From: Eledone cirrhosa | Taxonomy: Eukaryota | Assembly (NCBI GenBank): GCA_964016885.1 | Contig: OZ024740.1 | Location: 402,690,001-402,754,000, forward strand | DNA: 64,000 nt | Reading direction: 5' to 3' | In this document: positions 673 to 56,550 of the stretch, one piece after another | Layout of the letters: every line of letters starts with the position of its first letter | Position numbering within the stretch: the stretch's first letter is position 1 | The notes under the pieces: generated by a model | What the model was told of the DNA's origin: nothing | Database searches by the model: none | Seen by the model: only the letters and a program-made list of their open reading frames with translations | Position numbers and translations under genes: made by a program

Positions 673-811
673 ACAATTCCGCGCAGGACAACTCAGTGCC
701 GACAATTCAGCGCCGACAATTCAGCGCCGACAATTCAGTGCATGACAATTTAGCGCAACGACAATTCAGCGCATGAAAATTTAGCGCAAGGACAATTCAG
801 CGCAAGGACAA
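673..811. repeat. Minisatellite, ~14-16 bp unit (GACAATTCAGCGC(C/AT/AAG)) x ~9
   Basis: Directly visible tandem units. Resembles subterminal repeats of DNA transposons but no TIR partner was found. Confidence 0.85.
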
Positions 812-1490
812 TGCAAAACGATATATAATGTGTGTGTGTATATATATATATATATTTAAAAAAGGAAATAGAATGACTTCACTTGTGGTTCCAAATAATT
901 TATTTTCTTCAAAAATCCAAAGGTTTACAATTTGAAATTTTTAAAGAGAGCTTGTGATGAAATTCTTAAGCAAAGATTTTTCTTAAGAGAAATATGTGTA
1001 GAAGGTGTATTTCTGAGCAGCGCATTAGGGGGTACAATTTGTTTGGGTCACTTAAGCTTGGATTCTTTTGTTCAAAAGAATGTGTCCCTAGCAATTTTTA
1101 GTACCAAAATCGAATTTGTGTGTGTCTGCGTGTGTGCGTAGGTAGTTAGTTTCTCAGTAGGAAAACAGAATAAAGGATTTTCCACTCGCTATCTCAACTC
1201 ACTACTACCACCAACCGCTTTCAACACTCCCCCATTGCTACACATATTAAAACCCCACCCACTCACAAACACACCAAATCCATTTATATAGAACTACACA
1301 GCACATACAAATCAGTTTGAAGACCGCGATTCAGCGAGAAAGTTCTTCACACACACATTATTTGTGGTACTTCCTTTTTAGGAATCCGGTTGGTTACTGA
1401 GTATGGAAATCGAGCCGATAAGTTGGAGTACTTGCGCACTCTAAGTTACCAAATTGAACTACAGAAGTAAATTATTATTAATATTTCTTT

Positions 1491-1631
1491 AGGGTGGGGG
1501 ATTGGCAGTATCGGTAGAGAGTCGGACGCCCTGATTTCCAGCATAGTTACGTCTCTTTACAGTCTGAGTTCAAATCCCGCCGAGGTTTACTTTGCCTTTC
1601 ATCCTTACGGGATCGATAAAATAAAGTACCA
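1491..1631 (+). mobile_element. tRNA-derived SINE (family A), 3'-truncated by the HHR tandem array
   Basis: Head GGATTGGCAGTATCGG, B-box GAGTTCAAATCCC and central GCCTTTCATCCTTACGGGATCGATAAAATAAAGTACCA match the full copies at 30698 and 63170. Confidence 0.85.
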
Positions 1632-1746
1632 TATAAACGGCTGTTATTTCTAGCAGAACGAGTATGCGGCAACTAGAAACTGGAAAACCATGTGCGTTAA
1701 ACAGTCTTTTTAAAATATTTTGAAGTGAAACATACCAATTGTTCAG

Positions 1747-1874
1747 GGTACTTGCTGAGGAGAGCTGAACGGGGTATTTTTACACTTTTTCATTTCGAAA
1801 CTTATTTGGATTTTGAAGTTTAAACTTATCTACGGAACAGGTTTGATTTTGAAATTTAAATGGGTCCAAGTACC
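1747..1874 (+). ncRNA. Type I hammerhead ribozyme, monomer 1 (predicted cleavage after C1866)
   Basis: Stem I GGTACTTG(1747-54)/CAAGTACC(1867-74); CUGAGGA 1755-61; stem II GAG-TGAA.../...TTCA-TTC; GAAA 1797-1800; 27-bp stem III with a cUACGg loop; GUC 1864-66. Confidence 0.85.
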
Positions 1875-2281
1875 ACGGCCATTTGCCAATATCGTTTGTT
1901 TTTATTGATTTATTATTTTAAATCGAGACAGGCAAACTGTATTATTATAATTAGTATTTTTCAATCTAGCTAACTTAGTCATTTACAATACAAACACTTA
2001 TATGTTGGTATTTGTGTTTTATCATATATATTAATTTATATTAACTTGTATTACACGGCTCATAAATACTTCTTTCTTTGAGCTATTTCATTTTAAAGGA
2101 CTGCGTGAGTTTAGAACTCATTATTCTTAGTATCACTGCTCCTTATGTAGAGCTAACTTTAGCCCCATATAAACGGCTGTTATTTCTAGCAGAAAGAGTA
2201 TGCGGCAGCTAGAAACTGGAAAACCATGTGCGTTAAATTGTCTTTTTAAATATTTTGAAGTGAAACATACCAATTGTTCAG

Positions 2282-2405
2282 GGTACTTGCTGAGGAGAGC
2301 TGAACGGAGTATTTTTTCACTTTTTCATTTCGAAACTTGGATTTTGAAATTTATACTAATCTACGGAACAGGTTTGATTTTGAAATTTAAATGGGTCCAA
2401 GTACC
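2282..2405 (+). ncRNA. Type I hammerhead ribozyme, monomer 2 (cleavage after C2397)
   Basis: Same core as monomer 1, with a 4-nt deletion in the 5' strand of stem III. Confidence 0.8.
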
Positions 2406-2811
2406 ACGGCCATTTGACAATCTCGTTTGTTTTTATTGATTTATTATTTTAAATCGAGACAGGCAAACTGTATTATTATAATTAGAGTTCTTCAATCTAG
2501 CTAACTTAGTCATTTACAATACAAACACCTATATGTTGGTATTTGTGTTTTATCATATTATTAATTTATATTAACTTGTATTACACGGCTCAGAAATACT
2601 TCTTTCTTTGAGATATTTCATTGTAAAGGACTGCTTGAGTTTAGATCTCATTATTCTTCGTATCACTGCTCCTTATGTAGAGCTAACTTTAGCACCATAT
2701 AAACGGCTCTTATTTCTAGCAGAACGAGTATGCGGCAGCTAGAAACTGGAAAACCATGTGCGTTAAACAGTCTTTTTAAATATTTTGAAGTGAAACATAC
2801 CAATTGTTCAG

Positions 2812-2939
2812 GGTACTTGCTGAGGAGAGCTGAACGGAGTATTTTTTCACTTTTTCATTTCGAAACTTATTTGGATTTTGAAGTTTAAACTTATCTACAG
2901 AACAGGTTTGATTTTGAAATTTAAATTTGTCCAAGTACC
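2812..2939 (+). ncRNA. Type I hammerhead ribozyme, monomer 3 (cleavage after C2931)
   Basis: Same core; GG>TT change near the base of stem III, GUC retained. Confidence 0.75.
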
Positions 2940-3195
2940 ACGGCCATTTGCCAATATCGTTTGTTTTTATTGATTTATTATTTTAAATCGAGACAGGCAA
3001 ACGGTATTATTATAATTAGTATTTTTCAATCTAGCTAACTTAGTCATTTACAATACAAACACTTATATGTTGGTATTTGTGTTTTATCATATATATTAAT
3101 TTATATTAACTTGTATTACACGGCTCAGAAATACTTCTTTCTTTGACCTATTTCATTGTAAAGGACTGCTTGAGTTTAGAACTCATTATTCTTAG

Positions 3196-3259
<64 letters not shown>

Positions 3260-3407
3260 CATATATATATATATATTTTTTTTTTAATGTTTAAAGAAGG
3301 TTCAATGAATAAATCAAAGAATGAATTTTACAATAGATTGGAAGCACTCAACAATTTGACTGAATCTTAACCATCTACTAATTCAGGGTATGTTATGCAT
3401 CATCTTA

Positions 3408-3470: not shown

Positions 3471-4565
3471 AAATATACTTGATCACACGAATGTCTATTG
3501 TTGTTAATATTTTGAATTAATATATATATATACATCAAAAGAGATCGATATTAAATTTATAACGATCGTGTGGTTCAATGATTGCTCCATGAGAGAATCG
3601 AAGCTAAAAGTCCAACACCTCAACTCTCTTGCACACTTCCAATATCATAGAAATCTACATAACTAATATTTTGCAGAGAAACACAAAACATAGGGACAGA
3701 ATTATATATATTTTATACATGTATGTATGTGTGTGTGTGTGTGTGTTTTAGTCTGTGTTTTAGTCTGTGATTATTGCTAAGCTGTAATTCGACACCACCT
3801 ACAAACTATGAATCCATAATTATATCGAGATAAATCGCATATGTTTTATCGTTGAAGTCAATGTATCTACTTTACTCCTTTACTCAAGTGAATATTTCAA
3901 TACGTTCGTGTATTTCTTAATGCCCACTACTCATTGTTATGCTTTTTAAATATTCTTTGTTATTCAAATCACACACCTCCATTACTCGACTTCATAGTTG
4001 TCCTTCTGTATGTTATCGATCTCAAATGATCTCTGCTGAATGCTGAATACTGTATACCGTTTTCATTTTATCGTTGTAAGGCGGTTTATATTAAGTTATA
4101 TTTAAATATTATTTACAGTTCAGCAGCCACAATGTGAGTTGTTTGTGTATATGGGCGTTGAATCATGATAATGATCCTGGGAAGATGTCAACAACAGATA
4201 AACTTAGTGTAAGTATTAATGAGTTGAATAAAATAAATAAAATAGTACAGCATACATTTACAACAATTCCAAGTGATTCATTAGTTTAATCTCTTATGCA
4301 TCACTTCATAAGTCATAGTTATCACTACTCTAATATTTCTTAGACATTAATTTAATTTTGTTTTCATTAGAATGGATGTTTGTCGGGTTGTTGGTTTTAG
4401 TGTCTTCTTCAAATATAACGGCCAAAGAAGAATAAATATTAATATTCAATCACAAAAAGTTATGGAAGTCATTATCTAAAAATATACATACATACACACA
4501 TACATGCTTTTATGCTTACACGCACACACACACATACACGTATAATATATATTATATATATATAT

Positions 4566-5416
4566 ATCTCACACACATCGACACGGTCTGTACCTCTCTC
4601 GCTCATGAAATCCACCCAGATTATGCTGACCGGACAACCATGTTGCTTGTTTATTTTCCTATCTTCGATTTGCTTTTATCCTTCTATGTTGTTTACTTGT
4701 CCCCCTCGCTTTACGCGAATTCTGGTCCCAATAACATTTTTTAGTTATTGCTCGCACCAACCTGAGGTATCTGATTTTTAATGCGATGAAATACCAATGA
4801 TGGTTGGAAAATCACTGACGAAGGACTATTTTTTATCATATGTAACCCATGTGCAAACCACGCAGTATTCTTCTTCTCATGTTTTTTATATATATTTACC
4901 TCGGCTGCGTTTGTCTGTTTCTCTGTTACTGCTTCCCCGCTCTCTCTGTTTCTCTCACCTTCTTTCGCCCCCTCTGTCAGTTACACTTTCTCTCGACTGA
5001 CCTCTTCCTCACACTTCCACTCACTCACTCTCAGTTTCTCCCCTTCTCACTTCCTCCCGTTTGGCTTGTGTGGGTCTCTTCTTGCTTACATCTCACACAC
5101 ATCGACACGGTCTGTACCTATCGCGCTCATTAAATCCACCCAGCTTATGCTGACCGGACAACCATGTTGCTTGTTTATTTTCCTATCTTCGGTTTGCTTT
5201 TATCCTTCTATGTTGTTTACTTGTCTCCCTCGCTTTACGCGAATTACTGGTCCCAATAACTTGTTTTAGTTATTGCTCGCACCAACCTGAGGTATCTGAT
5301 TTTTAATGCGATGAAATACCAATGATGGTTGGAAAATCAATGACGAAGGACTATTTTTATCATATGTAACCCATGTGCAAACCACGCAGTATTCTTCTTT
5401 CTTCTCATGTTTTATA
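4566..5416 (+). repeat. Direct tandem duplication (~325 bp; 4566-4890 and 5090-5416; period 524 bp), Penelope pLTR-like
   Basis: Near-identical copies, each ending in a TA run. A 40-bp piece of the same family lies on the minus strand at ~12200-12240. Confidence 0.75.
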
Positions 5417-25141: not shown

Positions 25142-25253
25142 TTTAAATGCGATGGACTGAGTGCTCTACTACTGCACATATAACCTACCAGTGTTTTGGC
25201 ATTATATATATATATATGATATAAGATCAAAATATGGTTAAAAGAGTTCCAAG

Positions 25254-25324
25254 TATTTTATTATGCGCATTTCAAAAACAAATATCATCATGGGATGATA
25301 TCTGCGTTTTAATCAGATAAAATA
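25254..25324 (-). ncRNA. Type I hammerhead, G8>T variant (CTGATTA)
   Basis: Reverse complement of 25426-25496 with one core substitution. Confidence 0.65.
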
Positions 25325-25425
25325 GGGATACATGATATGAAGCTTAAAAAACACTTGTGAATAGTGAAGTTTTAAATCAACATATGTTGATTTAAAACTT
25401 CACTAGGCTTCATATCATGTATCCC

Positions 25426-25496
25426 TATTTTATCTGATGAAAACGCAGATATCATCCCATGATGATATTTGTTTTTGAAATGCGCATAATAAAATA
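25426..25496 (+). ncRNA. Minimal type I hammerhead, intact
   Basis: TATTTTAT-CTGATGA-stem II (CAGATATCATC/GATGATATTTG)-GAA-ATGCGCAT-A-ATAAAATA; 8-bp stem I and loopless palindromic stem III. Confidence 0.85.
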
Positions 25497-25636
25497 CTTG
25501 GAACTCTTTTAACCATCTTTTGATCTTATATTATATATACTCAAGTCCTACAAACTGTAGAGTGGTACTTATCCGTACTTATTTGCATTGCTTTATTGTG
25601 CTACAAAAAAACTCACCTCCTACACACACCCACGCC

Positions 25637-25671
<35 letters not shown>

Positions 25672-25844
25672 CTTTGATAACTTTGATAACTTCGATAGGT
25701 TTCGGCCAGTATTAGATCAAGCCATGTTTAATTTGATAGCACCACCTGGCTAATCAGGGTTTGGACATCATGACCCACTCAATAGAGAGTTATATATATA
25801 TATATAAAGAGAGAGAAAGAGAGGGAGAGAGATAGAGAGAGAGA

Positions 25845-30890: not shown

Positions 30891-31311
30891 TATTATTATT
30901 ATTATTATTATTGAATGCCATGGTTGACGGAGGCTCGGCTCTGTAAGGTATTGTAAATTTTGACCGCTATAACAATTGTGAATTGTTTAAAACTTTAACC
31001 AAATTGCAGACAAAAACACCCTCCTCCTCGTGAGAGGGATCTTTCTGCCCGTTAGTTGGCCCTTCGGGGTTAAATAACCGCTTATTGGGGTTTTGTGCCC
31101 AATATTTATTTTAAACCCCAAAAAACATGGCTATGAAAAAGAATTTTCACAAGTCACTCCCACTCATTCCGTCTTCTTCTTCTTCAATCGTCACTACAGC
31201 AGAGAGAAGATTGTCTCTCTCCCTCCCTTCTCTAAATGTGTCTCTCTCCTCCCTTCTCTTTCGCAAGCGACGCCAATAAAGAAAAATAGCTTCCAAAATC
31301 ACGTGCAAAGC

Positions 31312-33269
31312 ATGGAACATTTCTCCACGACGACGACAACGACGAAAAAGGTGTGCGGTAAATACGAAAACCCATTTCATTCGTCTGACGTCATGAATAA
31401 TAGCAGTAGCAGCCGTAATAACAGCATCAGCAGCAGCAACAGTGACAAGGAAAACAACAGTAGCAGCCGCAACAGCATCAGCAGCACCATAAGCAACAAC
31501 AGCATTAGCAGCAACAGCAACAACAACAGCAGCAGCAGCAACAACAACAACAACCACAGCAACAGCGGCGGCGGCAGTAGTCGTAGTACCTGCAGCAACA
31601 ACAAAAGTAACAGCAGCTCTGACGACAACAACAACTGCAGCAAAGAAAAACCAATCTCGTTTGCAGGTATCGCAAAGAACCTGGAAACCATCCTCATAAC
31701 AAATGAGGAATTACAAGAAGCGAAGATGGTGACAAAAACCGGACACCGAGCAATCTGCAAGGTAGCCGAAAATTTTTTAGAAACCCAACAGTGTACGGTC
31801 ACGTACCGCACAGTAAGCACAAAATCCCGTAGGGTTGAAAGAGCCACAGAGGCTCAAATACAAAAAGCCTTAGGGTCTGTGTGGCAGCGGAAAACGCACA
31901 TCACCCGAGGCAAGAAATATGCCACCGTAGACTTGCTTTTTTCCACACCCCAGGAGGCAAAGGCTCAATCCTTAGTGACCCTAAGGAGCGAGGAAATGGT
32001 GTTGGTGCCCTCCTACTGCGGGCAAAAAATTGTGAGGCTCAAACTGACCCACGTCCCCCGTCCCCCACGATGGCCCCTTCTTGGCTGGCCGCGTCATTCC
32101 TCGTCGGAATCGAGGACAAAACAACTGTACTGCAAGTACAGAAAAAAGTAAGAGAAGATTGGGTTGGCACCTCTATTGAGATGTTAATCCAAACCAACCA
32201 GGAGTGCATCGAAGCTATCCCGGATGTGATAGACTTCGATAACGGCACTCAACTGCCCATAAGTGTTGAGGGAAAACGCCCGAAATGCTTTCGCTGTGGA
32301 TCGAAGACTCACCTCAGGGCCTTCTGCAACGAGAAGACCCTGAGAAAGGAGAAAACCCCCCTCCTTTCTAAACCGGCTCCACTGTTACCAGCAACAGGAC
32401 AAGCGGTAACCAAGAACGATAGGTCCGTGGCACCCATACCCACGCCACGGAATTCAAGAACAGCAGCAGCAGTGGAAGTATTAACAACAACAACAGTAAT
32501 ACCAACTGCAGCTGCAACAGAGACTCGACTGCAAACATCACCAACAACAACAAGTGAAAGAGTGGAGCTGGTACCCCTCCCCGACCTCACAGAATCAGAC
32601 ATGGAGTGTGAGGTGGGAGAGGGATGGCAAAAGGTCGCAAGAAGGCACAAAAGCAGAAGCAGCGCATCGTCGCCTTCGAAAAGGGAGGAAAGAAATAAAA
32701 AAAGGGTAAAGGCTACTGCAAAGAGACTCACAGCAGCAACACCACCAACACCATCACCACCTACACTAGCACCACCATCACCACCGGCGAAAACCCCACC
32801 GGCAACAATAACAACACCTTCAACACCACCACCACAAGCACCAACATCGCAAATACAACAACAAAACACACACACCCAGCAACAACGACAAGAAAATAGC
32901 AGAACCACACCCCACCCCCAGAAAAACAAATGCACGGCAATAAATACACACAAGAAACTAATGACTTACATAATTGAACACACAGACATTTCACAGCACG
33001 ACTACATAATACCAGCAGCAATCAAAACGCCAACGAACATAAGACTGGTAAAAATAGCACAGAAACAATACACAAACATTAAAAATAAATTCCCAAACGG
33101 AGTTGGTGATTTCAGAGACCTAGGAGGGACTCTCAACCGGAGAGTATATTCGGACATAATCATAGAAGAGCCGACGACCAGCCGAAGGGACGATTCAACG
33201 GTCCCTTCACCAGACGATCAAGTGAATGGGGATGGAGAAACCATCCTTCCTCTACGAAAAGTACGGTAA
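31312..33269 (+). pseudogene. Tx1-like ORF1 (gag-like), one frameshift at ~32060
   Basis: ORFs 31093-32151 and 31881-33269 join. Contains SFAGIAK, CFRCGSKTHLRAFC, GWQKV, an S/N-rich N-terminus and a P/T-rich region. Start ATG 31312 is inferred. Confidence 0.8.
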
Positions 33270-33303
33270 GTGGTCTTTCCCATCTTTTCCATTCCATTTC
33301 AAC

Positions 33304-36300
33304 ATGATCTCACTCAGAATAGGCAGCATAAATGCGCGTGGCTTGGGGTCGTCATGGAAGCAGAGCCACCCACCTGCTCAACTGCCTCAGGTCACTAAAC
33401 ATAGATGTAGTGGCTATCAGTGAGACCAGAATCTCCGAAGCACGGGCCTTCGCACCGATCTTCAGCTGCTACGATGTGTACGCATCTCCCAGCCGTCCTC
33501 GATCTGGGGGAGGTATCGCTGTGCTTTTTCGGAGAGGTTTGGATCTCGCCATACGGGCCATCTTCCTGGACCCAGAAGGTAAGTTGGTGGTGCTGGACGT
33601 GACCAGCGGAGACGGGCAAGCTTTCAGGCTAGTGGCCGTCTATGCCCCGACAGGAGCAGGTTGGCCTGATTTCTTCCGGCGTCTAGAGACCTTTTTTGGA
33701 ACGTCCCGCTCTTTAGTGTTAGTGGGCGACTCGAACGGGATATTAGATGCACGCTAGGACTTGTGGGATTAGCGGATAGGGGAGGAAGGTGCAAGATCCT
33801 CACCAACCTGCTCAGGCGTTTTGAACTGTCTGACAGGTACCGATTGGATTTCCCGAATGTGCCAATGTGGACTTGGACAAATCGCATAGGGTCATCCAGA
33901 TCATATCTAGATAGAGTATTTTGTAGGGAAATAGATAGGTCTAGCATAGGCTGTCCACAAGTCAAGATAGTCAGCTACACGGACCACAAATTCGTGATCT
34001 GTGTGCTTGAATTAGATAGGCTTCATAGACGAGGGCCCGGCTACTGGAAACTAAACGCGTCCTTACCAGCGCGCAAGGCCTACAGAGACCGGATTAGCGA
34101 ACTAGTTAAGCGGTCGTTGACGGGGGCCATCGTCAACAACAAGTGGTGGTTTGCTCTGAAAAGAGCAATTAGAATAGAGTCCATTAGGCTTAGTAAGGCT
34201 TTAGCAATAGAGAAAAATAGAGCAGAGGGAGAACTAGTTAGAAAATTAGACGAGGCGCTGAGCAAAGCACGAAGGCTGCGTTGTCAGAGCTAGGGTGCGT
34301 GCTCTCAGACACGAGGGGGCGAAAGCCGTTCAATGGGCCCGAGTGGCAGAGGCGCGTCGTGGCAACAAAGCCACGATCCGGTCTTTGGTGGACCACGACG
34401 GGCGCATGCTACTCGATCACGGGAAAATGTGTGAAGCTTTTCAGCGACACTTCGCTTTGCTGTTCGTGGGCAGCGGTGGGCCGGGTCGAGGGATTGACTT
34501 TATTGTCTACCTCGACGGACAGCCGTGGCTCTCGGCCACTGAGGCGGAGTGTTGCGAAAAGCCGATAACAGCCGCCGAAGTACGGGAGGCAATGACTGGC
34601 TGCACAAGGGGTAAATCGCCTGGTTTGGATGGTCTGCCCTATGAACTTTACGTACAGATGCCAGACTTGTTCGGAGGCCTCTTAGCGGACGTCTACTGCA
34701 ACTGGCAACAGAACGGCAGAATTCCCAGCTATGTTAGCCGAGGAGCGGTGGCACTGCTGAGAAAGGATCCTAACAAGGCCGATATCATAGATAATTTCAG
34801 GCCATAACTCTGCTAAACACAGAGTTCAAGATTTTGGCCAAGGTGCTAGCAAAGAGGTTGGCGCTTGTCGTTGTTGGTCTGGTGGGAGATGCGCAGACAT
34901 GCGTCATTCCCGACAGATCCATCCACGACTACCTCCACCTCATGCCATACATCGTAGAGAGGGTAGCTAGGGAACCTGGCACGGGTGGGTCCTTGATCAA
35001 TTTAGATCAGTTGAAAGCTTTCGGTAGGGTCGCCCATCGTTACCTAGTGGCAGTCCTGAGGGCGGCTGGCTTTGGGCCCGTCTTCAGAGCCTGGATCGGT
35101 GCCATGCACAGTGACATCTGCTCTGTGGTGAGAGTGAACGCTCACCTTTCGGAACCGTTCAACATCATGCGCTCGATCGGCCAAGGATGTCCCCTCTCGT
35201 CCCTCTTGTACGTATTGACTCTGGAGCCATTGCTTCACAAACTGGAGACGTTTAGGGGCGTCCCGCGCGAACTAGGATGCGGAAGATCCGTGTCAGCATA
35301 TACGGACGATGTCACCGTAGTGGTGTCGAACGCCAAACACATCGAGGCGATCGGCACTACACTAAGAGAATACGAAGCGGTGACAGGAGCAATGATCAAC
35401 CAGAAAAAGTCAGTGGGTCTGCAGCTCGGTACCTGGAGAGGCAGGTCCATGCCGTCCAACAGCATCGTCGGACGCTGGACGGACGGACCGGTTAAATTGT
35501 TAGGGGTCTGGTTCGGTCCGGACCTCCAGACAGACAAAAACTGGGACGAGGTGACGAGAAGGGTGGCTTCTCTCACCCAGAAATGGGCCGAGAGGAAGCT
35601 ATCCCTGAAAGGTCGAGCGGAGGTGGCTAACGCGTACATCGCGTCTGTCATCTGCTACCGCCTGACCGCCTGCTACCGCCTGACTGCGCTGGAACGTTTG
35701 CTCTTTCGCTTTTTGTGGAAGGGACGCGCTCCGATTGTCAGGCGGCCCATCTGTTGTCAACACCAGCTACGTGGAGGGCTGGGCATGCCGTGGCTGATGA
35801 TGCGCAGACACGCGATCAGGCTACGACATCGCCACCTCTTCCTCGACGGTGATCAGGTGTGGTCGCCATTTGCTAGACACGTATTTCCCCAGCTCGTTTC
35901 CTTGAGGGAGCTGCAGTCCTGGGTCAAGCGAAGACCGAGAGGGAGCGCCTGGAGACTGGAATGTCTTCAGGCGCTCACAGCCCTCGACCAATCGGGCAAT
36001 CTGATCGGTGGAAACTCCATCTCGGCGTTCTATAGAGGATTAGTGGAGGAGAAGAGCGACGACGTACTTGGGGAAACTCTAGGCGTCGACGAAAATCAAC
36101 TAGCCAATCTCTTCAGAAGAACTTTCGGGCCAGGGCCTATGGACAACTTCCATAAATCTCTGGCCTGGCAGTGTTACCGAGGAGCCTTTCCAGTTCGGGA
36201 TAAACTCTACAGGCATGGAGGTGCCGTCAGCCGGGCATGTCCGAGATGCGCGCAGGGCGACGAAACCGTCCTGCACACACTCGTCCAGTGCCCGAAAATT

Positions 36301-36654
36301 GCTGACTTGTGGGTTTATGTCGAACACATGCTGTTGCGTGTAGGACGGATCCGGCTATCATCTGAGTCCTTCGTGAGGATTTCCCCGCCCTCTTCCTTTA
36401 GCCGGGAAGGGCAGGCAGTTTTTATCTGTATGGTGGCCATTGCGAAAGTGATAGTATGGTGGACACGTTTGAAAGGGCTGAAGACGAGCACTTACATCTT
36501 CGGTGATGCCCTGATTGACATTTTCAAATTTCATTTGAAAAGGAAAATCAGAGTAGAGAGGGAAGTGCTCGCTTCCCAGCATTTTGTTGAAAGATGGGTG
36601 AGAGAAGCAAGAATGGCCCGAGTGAATGGGCCTACTCTGAGTACGTATCTGTAA
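33304..36654 (+). pseudogene. Tx1-like ORF2 (APE endonuclease + reverse transcriptase + C-terminal zinc finger), disrupted
   Basis: Motifs SINARGL, ISET, VYAP, LVGDSN, YLDR, TDH, YWKLN, KSPGLDG, NFRP, QGCPLS, YTDD and CPRC...HTLVQC, spread over several frames. Stop at 33755 and an apparent deletion near 34265. Confidence 0.9.
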
Positions 36655-38302: not shown

Positions 38303-38898
38303 TAATACACTAAGAAAAGGCAGGGTGATAGAGAGAGAGTGAAAGCGATGAACTGGGTGGTTCAATTGCATTGGTTGTTAAGACACTAACAGTATATCAA
38401 AAGACTCTTTGGCATTAAACTTCTTCAACTATTGTTGTGAATAGAATGGAGGTCGCCACTTGAAAATTATCAAGAATCGCACGATCATAGCAAGGCCAAC
38501 GAATTCTTTGATCTTTAAATTGTAGGAGGTAGTTACGGATGGCAATTACAACTGCTTAATATGTTCTTCGCTCCTGCACGCAGGTACACACACAAACACA
38601 AATACATAGAAACACAAATCCATAAACACACACACTCATACACACACATGCACACATGTATATATGAATGTTTGTATCTATACACATATATATATATATG
38701 CATGCGTATCTATGTGTGTTCACGTGTACAGTTGTATTTATGTATGTAAATGTGTCTTTTGATACAACGTACAAACAAACGCCTGTATATGTGTACGGTC
38801 CATTTGCGTACACATACTCTGACACAAGCAGATGGAAGTGTATTATTGGCTCATATATTTATATGCTTAGATATGCTCACAATCACAGACAAATGCAC

Positions 38899-49275: not shown

Positions 49276-49435
<160 letters not shown>

Positions 49436-49659
49436 CAAAGGTATATATTCAGTTAGAAACTCAAAATAGTTACTTACAATTAAATATAAAAGAGAGATAA
49501 ACACAGATATAAACATATATGTGTTCAAATCGTAAGGGACCTTATTCGCTGGGGTGAAAATATACTAACTCTTAACAATATGGTTTGCCAGACTTAATTT
49601 AAAATAATAAATCAAGAAAAAGGAATAGAATACAAACCTATAATCGACAACTGCTTGAA

Positions 49660-49734
49660 CACCCAGACAACTTTGATTGGCTATTTCGCAATTTTAGCGA
49701 AGGGAATTACCAATTCTTTGCTCATCAGTGGGTG
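49660..49734 (-). ncRNA. Type I hammerhead ribozyme, intact core
   Basis: Minus strand: CACCCA-CTGATGA-GCAA...TTGC-GAA-ATAGC-CAATCAAA-GTTGT-C-TGGGTG. Confidence 0.85.
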
Positions 49735-49983
49735 GAGAATTAGTAATCCCTTCACTTCTAAGTACCTCAAATGACTGAATAGTGTGCGAATAGAAAATAA
49801 CGCACATGGTATCAGAACCTAGCGTGTCTCATAAACGTATGCTACTAAAAATAGCCGCCAGTTTACACGACATTTAAATTAGCTGAACATAATTTGAAGG
49901 AGCCGAATATATCAAAGGTGTATATTGAGTTAACATCTTATATTCAATTTTATATATATATATATGTATATATATAAATATAT

Positions 49984-54009: not shown

Positions 54010-54746
54010 TTAGGGAGAAATGTTTAGACGGGGTCCGTATTTGTTAATGAAGTAAGATTCCTTGCTGATGCGCTGGGTGTGGGTGGCATTATCTTTAAAT
54101 TTGTAGAGGGGAAAGATTCTGAAGTTGGGATGATTTGGGGCGGCACAGGTATCAATGTGTTCACTCAGTGGTATTTTCCTGTATTCCCGTATTTTAATTT
54201 GGGATCTATGGACAGTCATGCGTTGGCGGAGGCTGTTTTTGGTCTGGCCTATGTATTGTTCTCGACAACCTGAACAAGTTAATACATATATTAGATTTTC
54301 CGATGCACATGTGAAATTGTGTTTACTATAAAACGTTGTCCATCTTTGAAATAGAATTCCGAACCCTCTATGAGGTTGATGCAAATGCCACAGTTGGGTC
54401 TATCGCATTTTTTTACTGTGGGTTTCGTTGTTGTGGTTGGCAGTACTTTGGCATGTGTTAAGATGTTTTTCATTGACTTGGATTGTCTTTTGCTCTTTAT
54501 GATATCGTGTGTTCGTAGAATTTGGTTCATTCTATGGTCCTTTTTCAATACAGGGATGTTCCGGAGGATGATGTCAAAGGCCTCATTGTTGAGGGGGTTG
54601 TGTGTGGAGATGTATGGAATAGCTTTTAGTTTTGGTTGATTTACTTTAGGGTGTCTAAGGTCCTGGGTACTGAGTTTTAGGGCACGTTGGATTCCATTCT
54701 CGATTAGTGATGCAGGGTAGTCCCTGCCTATGAGTGTGTCCTTTAG
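54010..54746 (-). pseudogene. Penelope-like linker + GIY-YIG endonuclease, left arm, 1-bp frameshift near 54325
   Basis: ORFs 54291-55004 and 54010-54384 together mirror 55073-55810. Confidence 0.88.
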
Positions 54747-54791
54747 ATCTTGTAGCCGTAGTCCCTGCCTATGAGTGTGTCCTTTAGTTCT

Positions 54792-55072
54792 TGGCACGAA
54801 AACATAGAAAAACTTAAAGAATTTCACACCCTTATAAATGGGCTCAACACAAATATTAACTTCACGATAGAATACAGCCATCAATAACTCCCCTTCCTCG
54901 ACATCCTCATTAAGATCCATAACAAAAAAATAGAAACAGACATATACTACAAGCCCACAGACTCCAAGCAATATCTCCCCTTCAACGCTTGCCACCCTAG
55001 ACACGTTAAAATTAATATTCCCTACAACTTAGCCAAGAGAATCTGTACTATAGTCTCCAATAAAAACATCTG
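54792..55072 (+). pseudogene. Penelope-like reverse transcriptase C-terminal/thumb fragment
   Basis: Translates WHENIEKLKEFHTLINGLNTNINFTIEYSHQ*LPFLDILI...ETDIYYKPTDSKQYLPFNACHPRHVKINIPYNLAKRICTIVSN. Confidence 0.85.
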
Positions 55073-55810
55073 CTAAAGGACACACTCATAGGCAGGGACT
55101 ACCCTGCATCACTAATTGACAATGGAATCCAACGTGCCCTAAAGCTCAGTACCCAGGACCTTAGACACCCTAAAGTAAATCAACCAAAACTAAAAGCTCT
55201 TCCATACATCTCCACACACAACCCCCTCAACAATGAGGCCTTTGACATCATCCTCCAGAACATCCCTGTATTGAAAAAGGACCATAGAATGAACCAAATT
55301 CTACGAACACACGATATCATAAAGAGCAAAAGACAATCCAAGTCAATGAAAAACATCTTAACACATGCCAAAGTACTGCCAACCACAACAACGAAACCCA
55401 CAGTAAAAAAATGCGATAGACCCAACTGTGGCATTTGCATCAACCTAATAGAGGGTTCGGAATTCTATTTCAAAGATGGACAACGTTTTATAGTAAAACA
55501 CAATTTCACATGTGCATCGGAAAATCTAATATATGTATTAACTTGTTCAGGTTGTCGAGAACAATACATAGGCCAGACCAAAAACAGCCTCCGCCAACGC
55601 ATGACTGTCCATAGATCCCAAATTAAAATACGGGAATACAGGAAAATACCACTGAGTGAACACATTGATACCTGTGCCGCCCAAAATCATCCCAACTTCA
55701 GAATCTTTCCCCTCTACAAATTTAAAGATAATGCCACCCACACCCAGCGCATCAGCAAGGAATCTTACTTCATTAACAAATACGGACCCCGTCTAAACAC
55801 TTCTCCCTAA
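55073..55810 (+). CDS. Penelope-like Cys-rich linker + GIY-YIG endonuclease (open 245-codon frame, N-terminally truncated)
   Basis: CDRPNCGIC linker; LIYVLTCSGCREQYIGQT; LRQRMTVH; HIDTC; RISKESYFI..GPRLN. Confidence 0.85.
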   Translation, partial: LKDTLIGRDYPASLIDNGIQRALKLSTQDLRHPKVNQPKLKALPYISTHNPLNNEAFDIILQNIPVLKKDHRMNQILRTHDIIKSKRQSKSMKNILTHAKVLPTTTTKPTVKKCDRPNCGICINLIEGSEFYFKDGQRFIVKHNFTCASENLIYVLTCSGCREQYIGQTKNSLRQRMTVHRSQIKIREYRKIPLSEHIDTCAAQNHPNFRIFPLYKFKDNATHTQRISKESYFINKYGPRLNTSP

Positions 55811-56119
55811 GACGAACCCACAACATACACACATCAACATACATACCTACATCAGCACACATCTCTACCCACATATAAACACAATGACACACGTAAACAC
55901 ACATGCTCTATGGTGCAATACAAAAAAATATATGTGCATATATATGTATGTATATATGTATATATATATGTAGTGAATATATGTATGTGTATATATATAT
56001 AGTGAATATCATTTCACACCTTTTATTGTTAAGATTTTTGATGTTCTATTAAGAGAACCGATTTTACTGAAAAAATCGAATAATGTACACCATTTTACCA
56101 GGGGGAAAAAAATACTGGT

Positions 56120-56156
<37 letters not shown>

Positions 56157-56328
56157 CACAAACACATACACACGCGTACATCAACATACAAAGAGACTTA
56201 TACACACACACACACACACACGCGCGCACTTCTCCGTATAAGACAAAAGCTGAAAAATATCTTTTGACATGCCAAAATACCCCCCATTGCTTTCAGACAC
56301 ATTCTTACTGACCATCGAATTACTCTGC

Positions 56329-56401
<73 letters not shown>

Positions 56402-56472
56402 ATCTTAATAGCCATTTGACACACATCGCTGCTGGCCATTGTCGCAGCATCGAACACCTTACTAATACTACT

Positions 56473-56550
<78 letters not shown>

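What the first reader, a model, noticed from the sequence alone, without database searches (positions are those of the whole stretch)
1629..3199. Candidate retrozyme: head-to-tail ~533-nt non-coding monomers, each with an intact hammerhead ribozyme core
Seen: what looks like a plain satellite has a complete type I HHR in all three units (8-bp stem I GGTACTTG/CAAGTACC, CUGAGGA, stem II, GAAA, long stem III, GUC). Predicted cuts after 1866, 2397 and 2931 would release monomers of 531 and 534 nt. There is no credible protein ORF. The 3' end runs into (TATC)n(TA)n and the 5' end joins a SINE through a short (A)CCA microhomology. Established: metazoan non-LTR retrozymes (newt satellite 2, schistosome SM-alpha, cricket pDo500 and relatives) are tandem HHR monomers that yield linear and circular RNAs and are proposed to use Penelope-like RTs. 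Inference: this is a retrozyme family of a probable cephalopod with a monomer at the long end of those I recall and a non-minimal HHR that should cleave as a monomer. I do not know of a description of this family but cannot search.
Basis: partly seen in the sequence, partly recalled or inferred. Interest (0 to 1): 0.88.

Follow-up and report, generated by a model that had tools for sequence, protein, structure and literature searches.

The report
Hammerhead retrozyme sharing Hydra-Penelope start hairpins
This is one copy of a widely scattered, protein-free jumping repeat carrying a predicted self-cutting RNA motif (a known kind, the animal retrozyme); its copies end at two fixed points followed by the same small hairpin as in Hydra-type Penelope retrotransposons, which likely supply the copying enzyme.

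Summary
Observation confirmed: three head-to-tail 531-534-nt units at 1629-3199, each with a type I hammerhead core. Only unit 1 folds as a hammerhead by minimum energy. It is not a local duplication: two 20-22-mers occur 1,015 and 1,563 times in the 3.0-Gb genome, and stem I keeps pairing through compensatory changes across subfamilies. Copies carry a Penelope footprint: 86 of 97 3' ends fall at two sites (+185 and +267 from the cut site), they run into (TA)n, and over half the insertions have an inverted arm. None is the terminal repeat of an ORF. Both end sites lie just before a GCTC...GAGC hairpin. Three Hydra-clade Penelope families of this genome have the same hairpin (or a variant) behind their own two ends, one checked as a held-out prediction; three non-Hydra ends lack it. 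Most cDNAs cross the cut site (54 of 64) and a small excess stops just after it. Best reading: a non-autonomous retrozyme copied by Hydra-type RT from internal start sites, probably on a circle. Cleavage, expression and circles are untested. The scan noted similar retrozymes and this hairpin before, on other DNA. New member of a known kind, with a testable helper.

The parts
1629..3199 (+). One 5'-truncated retrozyme insertion, about three units, no inverted arm; ends at start site 2
1747..1874 (+). Type I hammerhead 1, predicted cut after 1866; minimum-energy fold is the hammerhead; private GG at base of stem III
2282..2405 (+). Hammerhead 2, predicted cut after 2397; 4-nt deletion in stem III
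2812..2939 (+). Hammerhead 3, predicted cut after 2931; family-typical U-U pairs at base of stem III
2049..2083 (+). End site 1 (monomer +185; inferred RT start 1) followed by long GCTC...GAGC hairpin at 2058-2083; the GAGC arm is changed in units 2 and 3
2131..2153 (+). End site 2 (monomer +267; inferred RT start 2) followed by short GCTC...GAGC hairpin at 2138-2153 (second copy 2668-2683)
3196..3276 (+). (TATC)n(TA)n at the 3' junction: the microsatellite target
1500..1631 (+).

Best explanation
This is a dispersed non-coding hammerhead-monomer family (a retrozyme) whose copies end at two fixed sites in (TA)n, and it is likely copied into DNA by the RT-endonuclease of Hydra-clade Penelope-like elements, which would start internally just before a GCTC...GAGC hairpin, probably on a circular monomer RNA. 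Steps: (1) read-through transcription of a tandem copy (inferred); (2) hammerhead cuts release a ~533-nt monomer, which a host ligase closes (inferred from coral, mussel and axolotl retrozymes, PMC7229834); (3) the Hydra protein binds a hairpin, nicks a TA run and primes at +185 or +267 (end sites and target shown; protein identity inferred); (4) RT passes the cut site and can go round more than once, giving partial tandems (crossing shown; circle inferred); (5) the second strand of the break often primes too, giving the inverted arm (structure shown).
For: Copy number and dispersal. Covariation: stem I 100% paired with 4 of 8 pairs changed on both sides in 23 variants; slid controls at most 46% paired. 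Ends: 86 of 97 at two sites, 84 of 86 into (TA)n, 35 of 62 windows two-armed; 36 of 58 two-armed in a second sample. Hairpin 1 keeps both arms in 145 of 159 read-through copies, with a changed but still pairing inner stem in subfamily B. Hydra-1 has two ends about 85 nt apart (35 and 32 ends), each followed by the hairpin. Hydra-2 has it after end 1 and GCTC with an imperfect partner after end 2. Held-out Hydra-4 has a near-identical short hairpin after end 2 and an ACTC...GAGT version after end 1. Absent after end 1 of a Neptune-type family and after both ends of another TA-targeting non-Hydra family. Background 0-0.004 per position. Hydra-1 is young, with many 713-codon open frames. 54 of 64 arms cross the cut site. 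Tandem units of one locus are closer than the outside median in 49 of 49 pairs in A and 22 of 24 in B. Two internal RT start sites are shown in vitro for a Poseidon element (PMC11167929).
Against: No cleavage, RNA or protein-RNA data. The monomer does not align with Hydra terminal repeats beyond the motif (33, 40 and 159 of 200 shuffles score as well). Only three non-Hydra ends could be read as controls. Chimeric junctions do not separate helpers: three with Hydra (L021, L233, L313) against two with non-Hydra elements (L220, L293). Circular-fold stability is modest (z -2.6 and -0.8). In this window the middle unit has far more private changes (about 5-6, 14-16 and 4-5; p 0.006-0.06), and units 1-2 share a variant that unit 3 lacks, which one RNA copied three times does not explain. 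In PMC11167929 the ribozyme was not needed for insertion in vitro and uncut RNA was the main template.
Confidence: 0.66

Rival explanations
1. Same family and same Hydra helper, but the template is mostly uncut linear multimer RNA (or linear monomers joined by RT jumping), not a circle.
For: Poseidon RT used unprocessed RNA in vitro and no reads ended at its cut site (PMC11167929). The window's units are unevenly diverged. Stem II is weak. Hydra-1 itself carries an altered core (CAGA in place of CUGA) yet is young and abundant.
Against: Start site 2 needs a hairpin that lies beyond the 3' end of a copy, so linear read-through templates would give daughters shorter than their parents, yet arms up to about three units occur (inference). 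Compensatory changes show that the ribozyme fold is kept. An excess of 5' ends at +1 to +20 suggests that cutting happens.
Confidence: 0.2
2. A retrozyme moved by another Penelope clade (Neptune-type or Naiad), which also targets (TA)n; the hairpin likeness is ancestry or chance.
For: GIY-YIG-type Penelope elements are abundant here (10,596 candidates); some end in TA with two ends. L220 joins a retrozyme to a Neptune-type RT fragment.
Against: The hairpin follows the ends of all three Hydra families read (two of six ends imperfect or variant) and none of three non-Hydra ends.
Confidence: 0.08
3. The monomer is the pseudo-LTR of an autonomous Penelope element that I did not sample; the copies are its truncated ends.
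For: Only about 120 windows of more than a thousand copies were read, all from the first half of contig C1 or the best-scoring hits. Not every Hydra family was fetched.
Against: Arms running up to 930 nt past the cut site continue as monomer. Of 49 one-armed insertions none has an ORF ending upstream as a pLTR would need. Terminal repeats of Hydra-1 and -2 do not align with it, and those of the other families read showed no such layout.
Confidence: 0.04
4. A satellite spread by DNA-level duplication, with a fossil hammerhead.
For: Tandem layout; bioRxiv 10.64898/2026.07.22.740005 discusses local amplification by unequal crossover.
Against: Fixed 3' ends, random 5' truncation, inverted arms, TA targeting and short dispersed arrays.
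Confidence: 0.02

Closest known systems
Metazoan non-LTR retrozymes (Cervera and de la Pena 2020, PMC7229834: coral, mussel, axolotl; read passages and parts 2-4 of 6; supplement could not be read)
   Same: Low-GC non-coding tandem monomers with a type I hammerhead, dispersed in thousands, co-existing with Penelope elements; circle and RT model.
   Different: Monomer 490-600 nt against 150-450 there; stem III is about 62 nt long; insertion ends, TA target and a named helper clade are not given in the parts read; no RNA evidence here.
Vertebrate non-LTR retrozymes as non-autonomous Penelope derivatives (bioRxiv 10.64898/2026.07.22.740005; read parts 1-3 of 5)
   Same: Link to Penelope elements; family lengths 51-972 bp; mostly short arrays.
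   Different: Their link is co-occurrence and pLTR sequence homology. Here there is no alignable pLTR; the link is the insertion footprint and a shared start hairpin. No cephalopod is named among the sampled groups in the parts read.
Hydra clade of Penelope-like elements (Craig et al. 2021, PMC8557442; read passages, section 11, supplement rows; lists Hydra-1_Obim, target (TA)n)
   Same: (TA)n target, partial tandems, inverted 5' arm, hammerhead near the 3' end, optional tail.
   Different: Hydra elements encode RT and endonuclease; this unit encodes nothing. No hairpin behind the ends is described in what I read; the tail here is 82 nt, not 30-40.
Poseidon element of Anolis, in vitro (Frangieh et al. 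2024, PMC11167929; read parts 1-2 of 4)
   Same: Two internal RT start sites downstream of a hammerhead, matching two genomic ends; both strands nicked and extended.
   Different: Autonomous; starts in an AC-rich stem-loop without homology to the target, whereas here both starts are at a TAT that matches the TA target and precede a GCTC...GAGC hairpin.

Membership tests
Metazoan non-LTR retrozyme | Type I hammerhead in each tandem unit | tested here: met
   (Rfam models do not score it)
Metazoan non-LTR retrozyme | No protein coding | tested here: met
   longest stop-to-stop frame 88 aa
Metazoan non-LTR retrozyme | Many dispersed copies as monomers to multimers, low GC | tested here: met
   GC 31%
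Metazoan non-LTR retrozyme | No LTR layout | tested here: met
   fixed 3' ends with random 5' truncation; PBS and PPT not searched
Metazoan non-LTR retrozyme | Monomer size | tested here: inconclusive
   493-596 nt in 33 complete monomers: above the 150-450 of PMC7229834, inside the 51-972 of the 2026 preprint
Metazoan non-LTR retrozyme | Target-site duplication longer than 4 bp when present | tested here: inconclusive
   flanks are TA runs or unrelated DNA; none seen in this window
Metazoan non-LTR retrozyme | Self-cleavage | not testable with these tools
   only predicted; stem II weak
Metazoan non-LTR retrozyme | Expressed as linear and circular monomer RNA | not testable with these tools
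   no RNA run available to lay; circular fold z -2.6 and -0.8
Autonomous Penelope element (pLTR of one) | RT and GIY-YIG ORF directly upstream of the terminal repeat | tested here: not met
   0 of 49 one-armed insertions; long arms continue as monomer
Penelope-type insertion footprint | Two 3' ends (tail), 5' truncation, inverted 5' arm, microsatellite target | tested here: met
Hydra clade (proposed helper families) | RWK-like, DKT, CxCx5C linker, CxxC and CxH in C-terminal endonuclease, (TA)n target | tested here: met
   motif search in Hydra-1 and -2, in part Hydra-4, against PMC8557442 section 11; no tree built; Pfam gave no hit for two of them
Hydra clade (proposed helper families) | Its protein actually copies this RNA | not testable with these tools
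   indirect only

The most novel reading that the evidence does not exclude
A short GCTC...GAGC hairpin a few bases past the start site is the cis handle by which Hydra-clade Penelope RTs choose where to begin, much as telomerase uses a stem beside its template. Retrozymes keep two such hairpins inside a ribozyme-cut circle and so hijack a named RT without any other sequence homology. The 5' ends of genomic copies record both circular and cut-linear templates.
Probability: 0.5. Interest if true: 0.75.

Novelty: new member of a known kind. Interest (0 to 1): 0.55.

Why it matters
Which enzyme moves animal retrozymes, and how it recognises them, has been proposed from co-occurrence and pLTR homology (PMC7229834; the 2026 preprint) but is not shown in the papers I read. 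This family gives a named candidate (young Hydra-clade elements with open frames), exact start positions, and a small RNA signal with natural compensatory variants. The question becomes one in-vitro experiment of the kind already done for Poseidon. A portable signal for internal, target-primed copying of circular RNA would also be of biotechnological interest.

Tried and rejected
Rfam at gathering score (whole window) and at E<=10 (1600-3250): no hammerhead model hit. Sequencing runs: no RNA holder listed. The three runs laid are contigs of one sample of unrecorded type; they cover SINE and monomer with many variants but say nothing on expression. Search for an autonomous parent: terminal repeats of several Hydra, Neptune-type and one Poseidon-like family read, none matching the monomer. 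A pattern meant to find read-through copies of the Neptune-type family's second end gave 0 matches, so that control is missing; a probe for another Neptune-type end failed in the script. Chimeric junctions as proof of the helper: first 2 Hydra against 0 Neptune, finally 3 against 2 non-Hydra, so dropped as evidence. The Hydra-Nfam rows and L222 come from foreign DNA in my library entry. I first took the control family for a Naiad; its endonuclease is C-terminal, so no true Naiad was tested. The crossing count (60 of 62) is forced by the probe and not used. The chi-square used a miscount and was replaced. One search had a wrong pattern length (redone). In one search two measures were not above shuffles (pairs changed on both sides 162 of 500; further pair types 500 of 500). 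Not-in-print searches: retrozyme/hammerhead/octopus, hammerhead ribozyme + cephalopod (44), + octopus (45), retrozyme + Penelope + target-primed + non-autonomous since 2021 (75, none), Hydra + Penelope-like + pLTR + stem-loop (80, none). No listing described a cephalopod retrozyme or this hairpin. Repbase and Dfam, the PMC7229834 supplement and the preprint's supplements were not seen and could hold the family.

Full report
Observation. The window holds three head-to-tail units at 1629-3199 (mean column identity 96%). Each has an 8-bp stem I, CUGAGGA, stem II, GAAA, a stem III of about 62 nt and GUC, with C17 at 1866, 2397 and 2931. Unit 1 folds as a complete hammerhead (z -3.3; 0 of 200 shuffles). 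In units 2 and 3 the minimum-energy fold pairs the core elsewhere (z -0.9 and -2.0). The perfect base of stem III in units 1-2 is private (GG in 2 of 197 ends held; TT 136, GT 55), and unit 2 has a 4-nt deletion. No frame exceeds 88 aa. Rfam scores nothing here. The 5' junction cuts a very abundant SINE-like repeat at 1631 with a 3-4-nt overlap; the 3' end runs into (TATC)n(TA)n.

Family. The window lies in a 3.0-Gb assembly. One monomer gave 2,655 candidates, of which 40 were scored, on many contigs. Exact 20- and 22-mers occur 1,015 and 1,563 times, reversed controls 0. Thirty-three complete monomers span 493-596 nt and fall into subfamilies, here A (about 534 nt) and B (about 518 nt); a more distant family D lies in the same window. 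Among 138 distinct hammerheads found by a pattern that demands 6 of 8 stem I pairs, 108 have an intact core, and the core varies mainly at the free seventh position. I aligned 23 of the 35 variant types listed. Stem I is 100% paired with four pairs changed on both sides; cells with double changes exceed all 500 shuffles; slid structures pair at most 46%; two other measures were not above shuffles. These are related sequences, so the changes count as a handful of events. Stem II is the weak part (closing-pair probability 0-0.49), so monomer cleavage is not assured.

Insertion anatomy. I read copies in genome order rather than by score. In the first sample (70 loci, 8 overlapping or already seen dropped; 62 windows, 61 insertions) 86 of 97 outward 3' ends lie at two sites, 45 and 41. 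These are +185 and +267 from the cut site in A, about +177 and +245 in B. Of those 86, 84 run into TA repeats, and 35 windows have an inverted arm. A second sample (70 loci, 12 overlaps dropped) has 36 of 58 two-armed. This is the layout described for Penelope elements (PMC8557442). The two ends match the two internal RT start sites shown in vitro for Poseidon (PMC11167929). No sampled copy is the terminal repeat of an ORF: long arms continue as monomer for up to 930 nt past the cut site. Upstream of 49 one-armed insertions the only same-strand Penelope hits were a Neptune-type RT joined in mid-frame (L220) and a 29-codon piece 130 nt away (L253).

Helper. The genome holds several Penelope groups. 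One young family (130 scored copies 96-98% identical to the query protein, many 713-codon frames) and two relatives carry the Hydra motifs of PMC8557442; I built no tree. Hydra-1 also ends at two sites, about 85 nt apart (35 and 32 ends). In read-through copies both are followed within 6-7 nt by GCTC and then a GAGC partner. So are both ends of A and B (GCTC 7-10 nt past the end). In D both ends have GCTC; the partner was changed in the one copy read for end 1. Hydra-2 has the hairpin after end 1 and GCTC with an imperfect partner after end 2. I noted the idea, then fetched Hydra-4 as a test: end 2 is followed by a hairpin almost identical to a subfamily-A variant, end 1 by an ACTC...GAGT version. 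Three non-Hydra ends that could be read lack it. Chance rate is 0-0.004 per position. Hairpin 1 keeps both arms in 145 of 159 copies, and its inner stem differs between A and B while still pairing. Against: the monomer does not otherwise align with Hydra repeats, controls are few, and direct junctions with other elements are uninformative (three Hydra, two of them TA-bounded composite insertions, against two non-Hydra).

Template. In the second sample, chosen by a probe downstream of the cut site, 85 of 94 arms could be scored. Of 64 arms that reach +20, 54 cross the cut site, so the main template is a circle or uncut multimer. Ten stop at +1 to +20 against 2.5 expected (p 2e-4; eight independent insertions, p 0.004). 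That fits a minority of cut linear templates. RT stalling at stem I fits too, and a seven-stop bump at +101 to +120 shows that other places also make bumps. Tandem units within a locus differ by a median 2.0% against 4.6% to outside copies (49 of 49 pairs lower in A, 22 of 24 in B; pairs not independent), as expected if one RNA gives all units. This window is an exception: by hand count its units have about 5-6, 14-16 and 4-5 private changes (p 0.006-0.06), and units 1-2 share a variant that unit 3 lacks, so template switching or later conversion is likely here. An argument for the circle, by inference: the hairpin for start 2 lies beyond the 3' end of any copy, so linear templates would shorten the family each round, whereas a ribozyme-cut monomer holds both hairpins in its middle. 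The circle model for Penelope was already proposed in PMC4209133 (passages read). Predicted circular folds are only modestly stable (z -2.6 and -0.8, 30 shuffles each).

Standing. It works like, and meets every testable feature of, a metazoan non-LTR retrozyme; cleavage and RNA could not be tested. My paper searches listed no description of a cephalopod retrozyme or of this hairpin. Repeat databases and two sets of supplements were not seen. Earlier AI notes describe other hammerhead arrays in this and other genomes and reach the same hairpin idea. I saw them after forming and partly testing it, and they are not independent evidence. Verdict: new member of a known kind. Its value is a named, testable helper and signal. 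Interest 0.55.

Noticed in passing
window 49340-49900, minus strand: Related monomer family (D) with a short-stem-III hammerhead near 49728, about 74% like the monomer downstream of the cut site, ending in TA; 2,932 candidates genome-wide. Its ends are also followed by the GCTC hairpin.
   Followed up: partly
window about 25200-25680 (second piece near 38750): Two-armed non-coding element (family C) with a minimal palindromic hammerhead at 25434. The sequence after its first end is an ACTC...GAGT hairpin resembling that of Hydra-4 end 1.
   Followed up: partly
L095-L124 and L189-L192, 3' repeat: The young, very abundant Hydra-1 family has a hammerhead-like motif whose core reads CAGA in place of CUGA in all 28 copies printed, and it does not fold as a hammerhead by minimum energy: an active Penelope with a possibly dead ribozyme.
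   Followed up: no
window 54013-56500: Two-armed fragment of a Neptune-like Penelope element with C-terminal GIY-YIG frames on both strands.
   Followed up: partly
window 4563-5400: Two-copy 524-nt partial repeat, 96-100% alike; my descriptor found no hammerhead; a relative lies in L090.
   Followed up: no
window 31078-36651: Fragmented non-LTR retrotransposon frames (endonuclease-like and RT-like; labels from recall).
   Followed up: no
L299, 596-nt monomer: Internal duplication of exactly end site 1 plus its hairpin, about 47 nt.
   Followed up: no
L233:2043-2823 and L313:1694-2127: Single TA-bounded insertions built from a Hydra-1 end on one arm and a retrozyme on the other.
   Followed up: partly
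window 673-812: 14/31-nt minisatellite.
   Followed up: no
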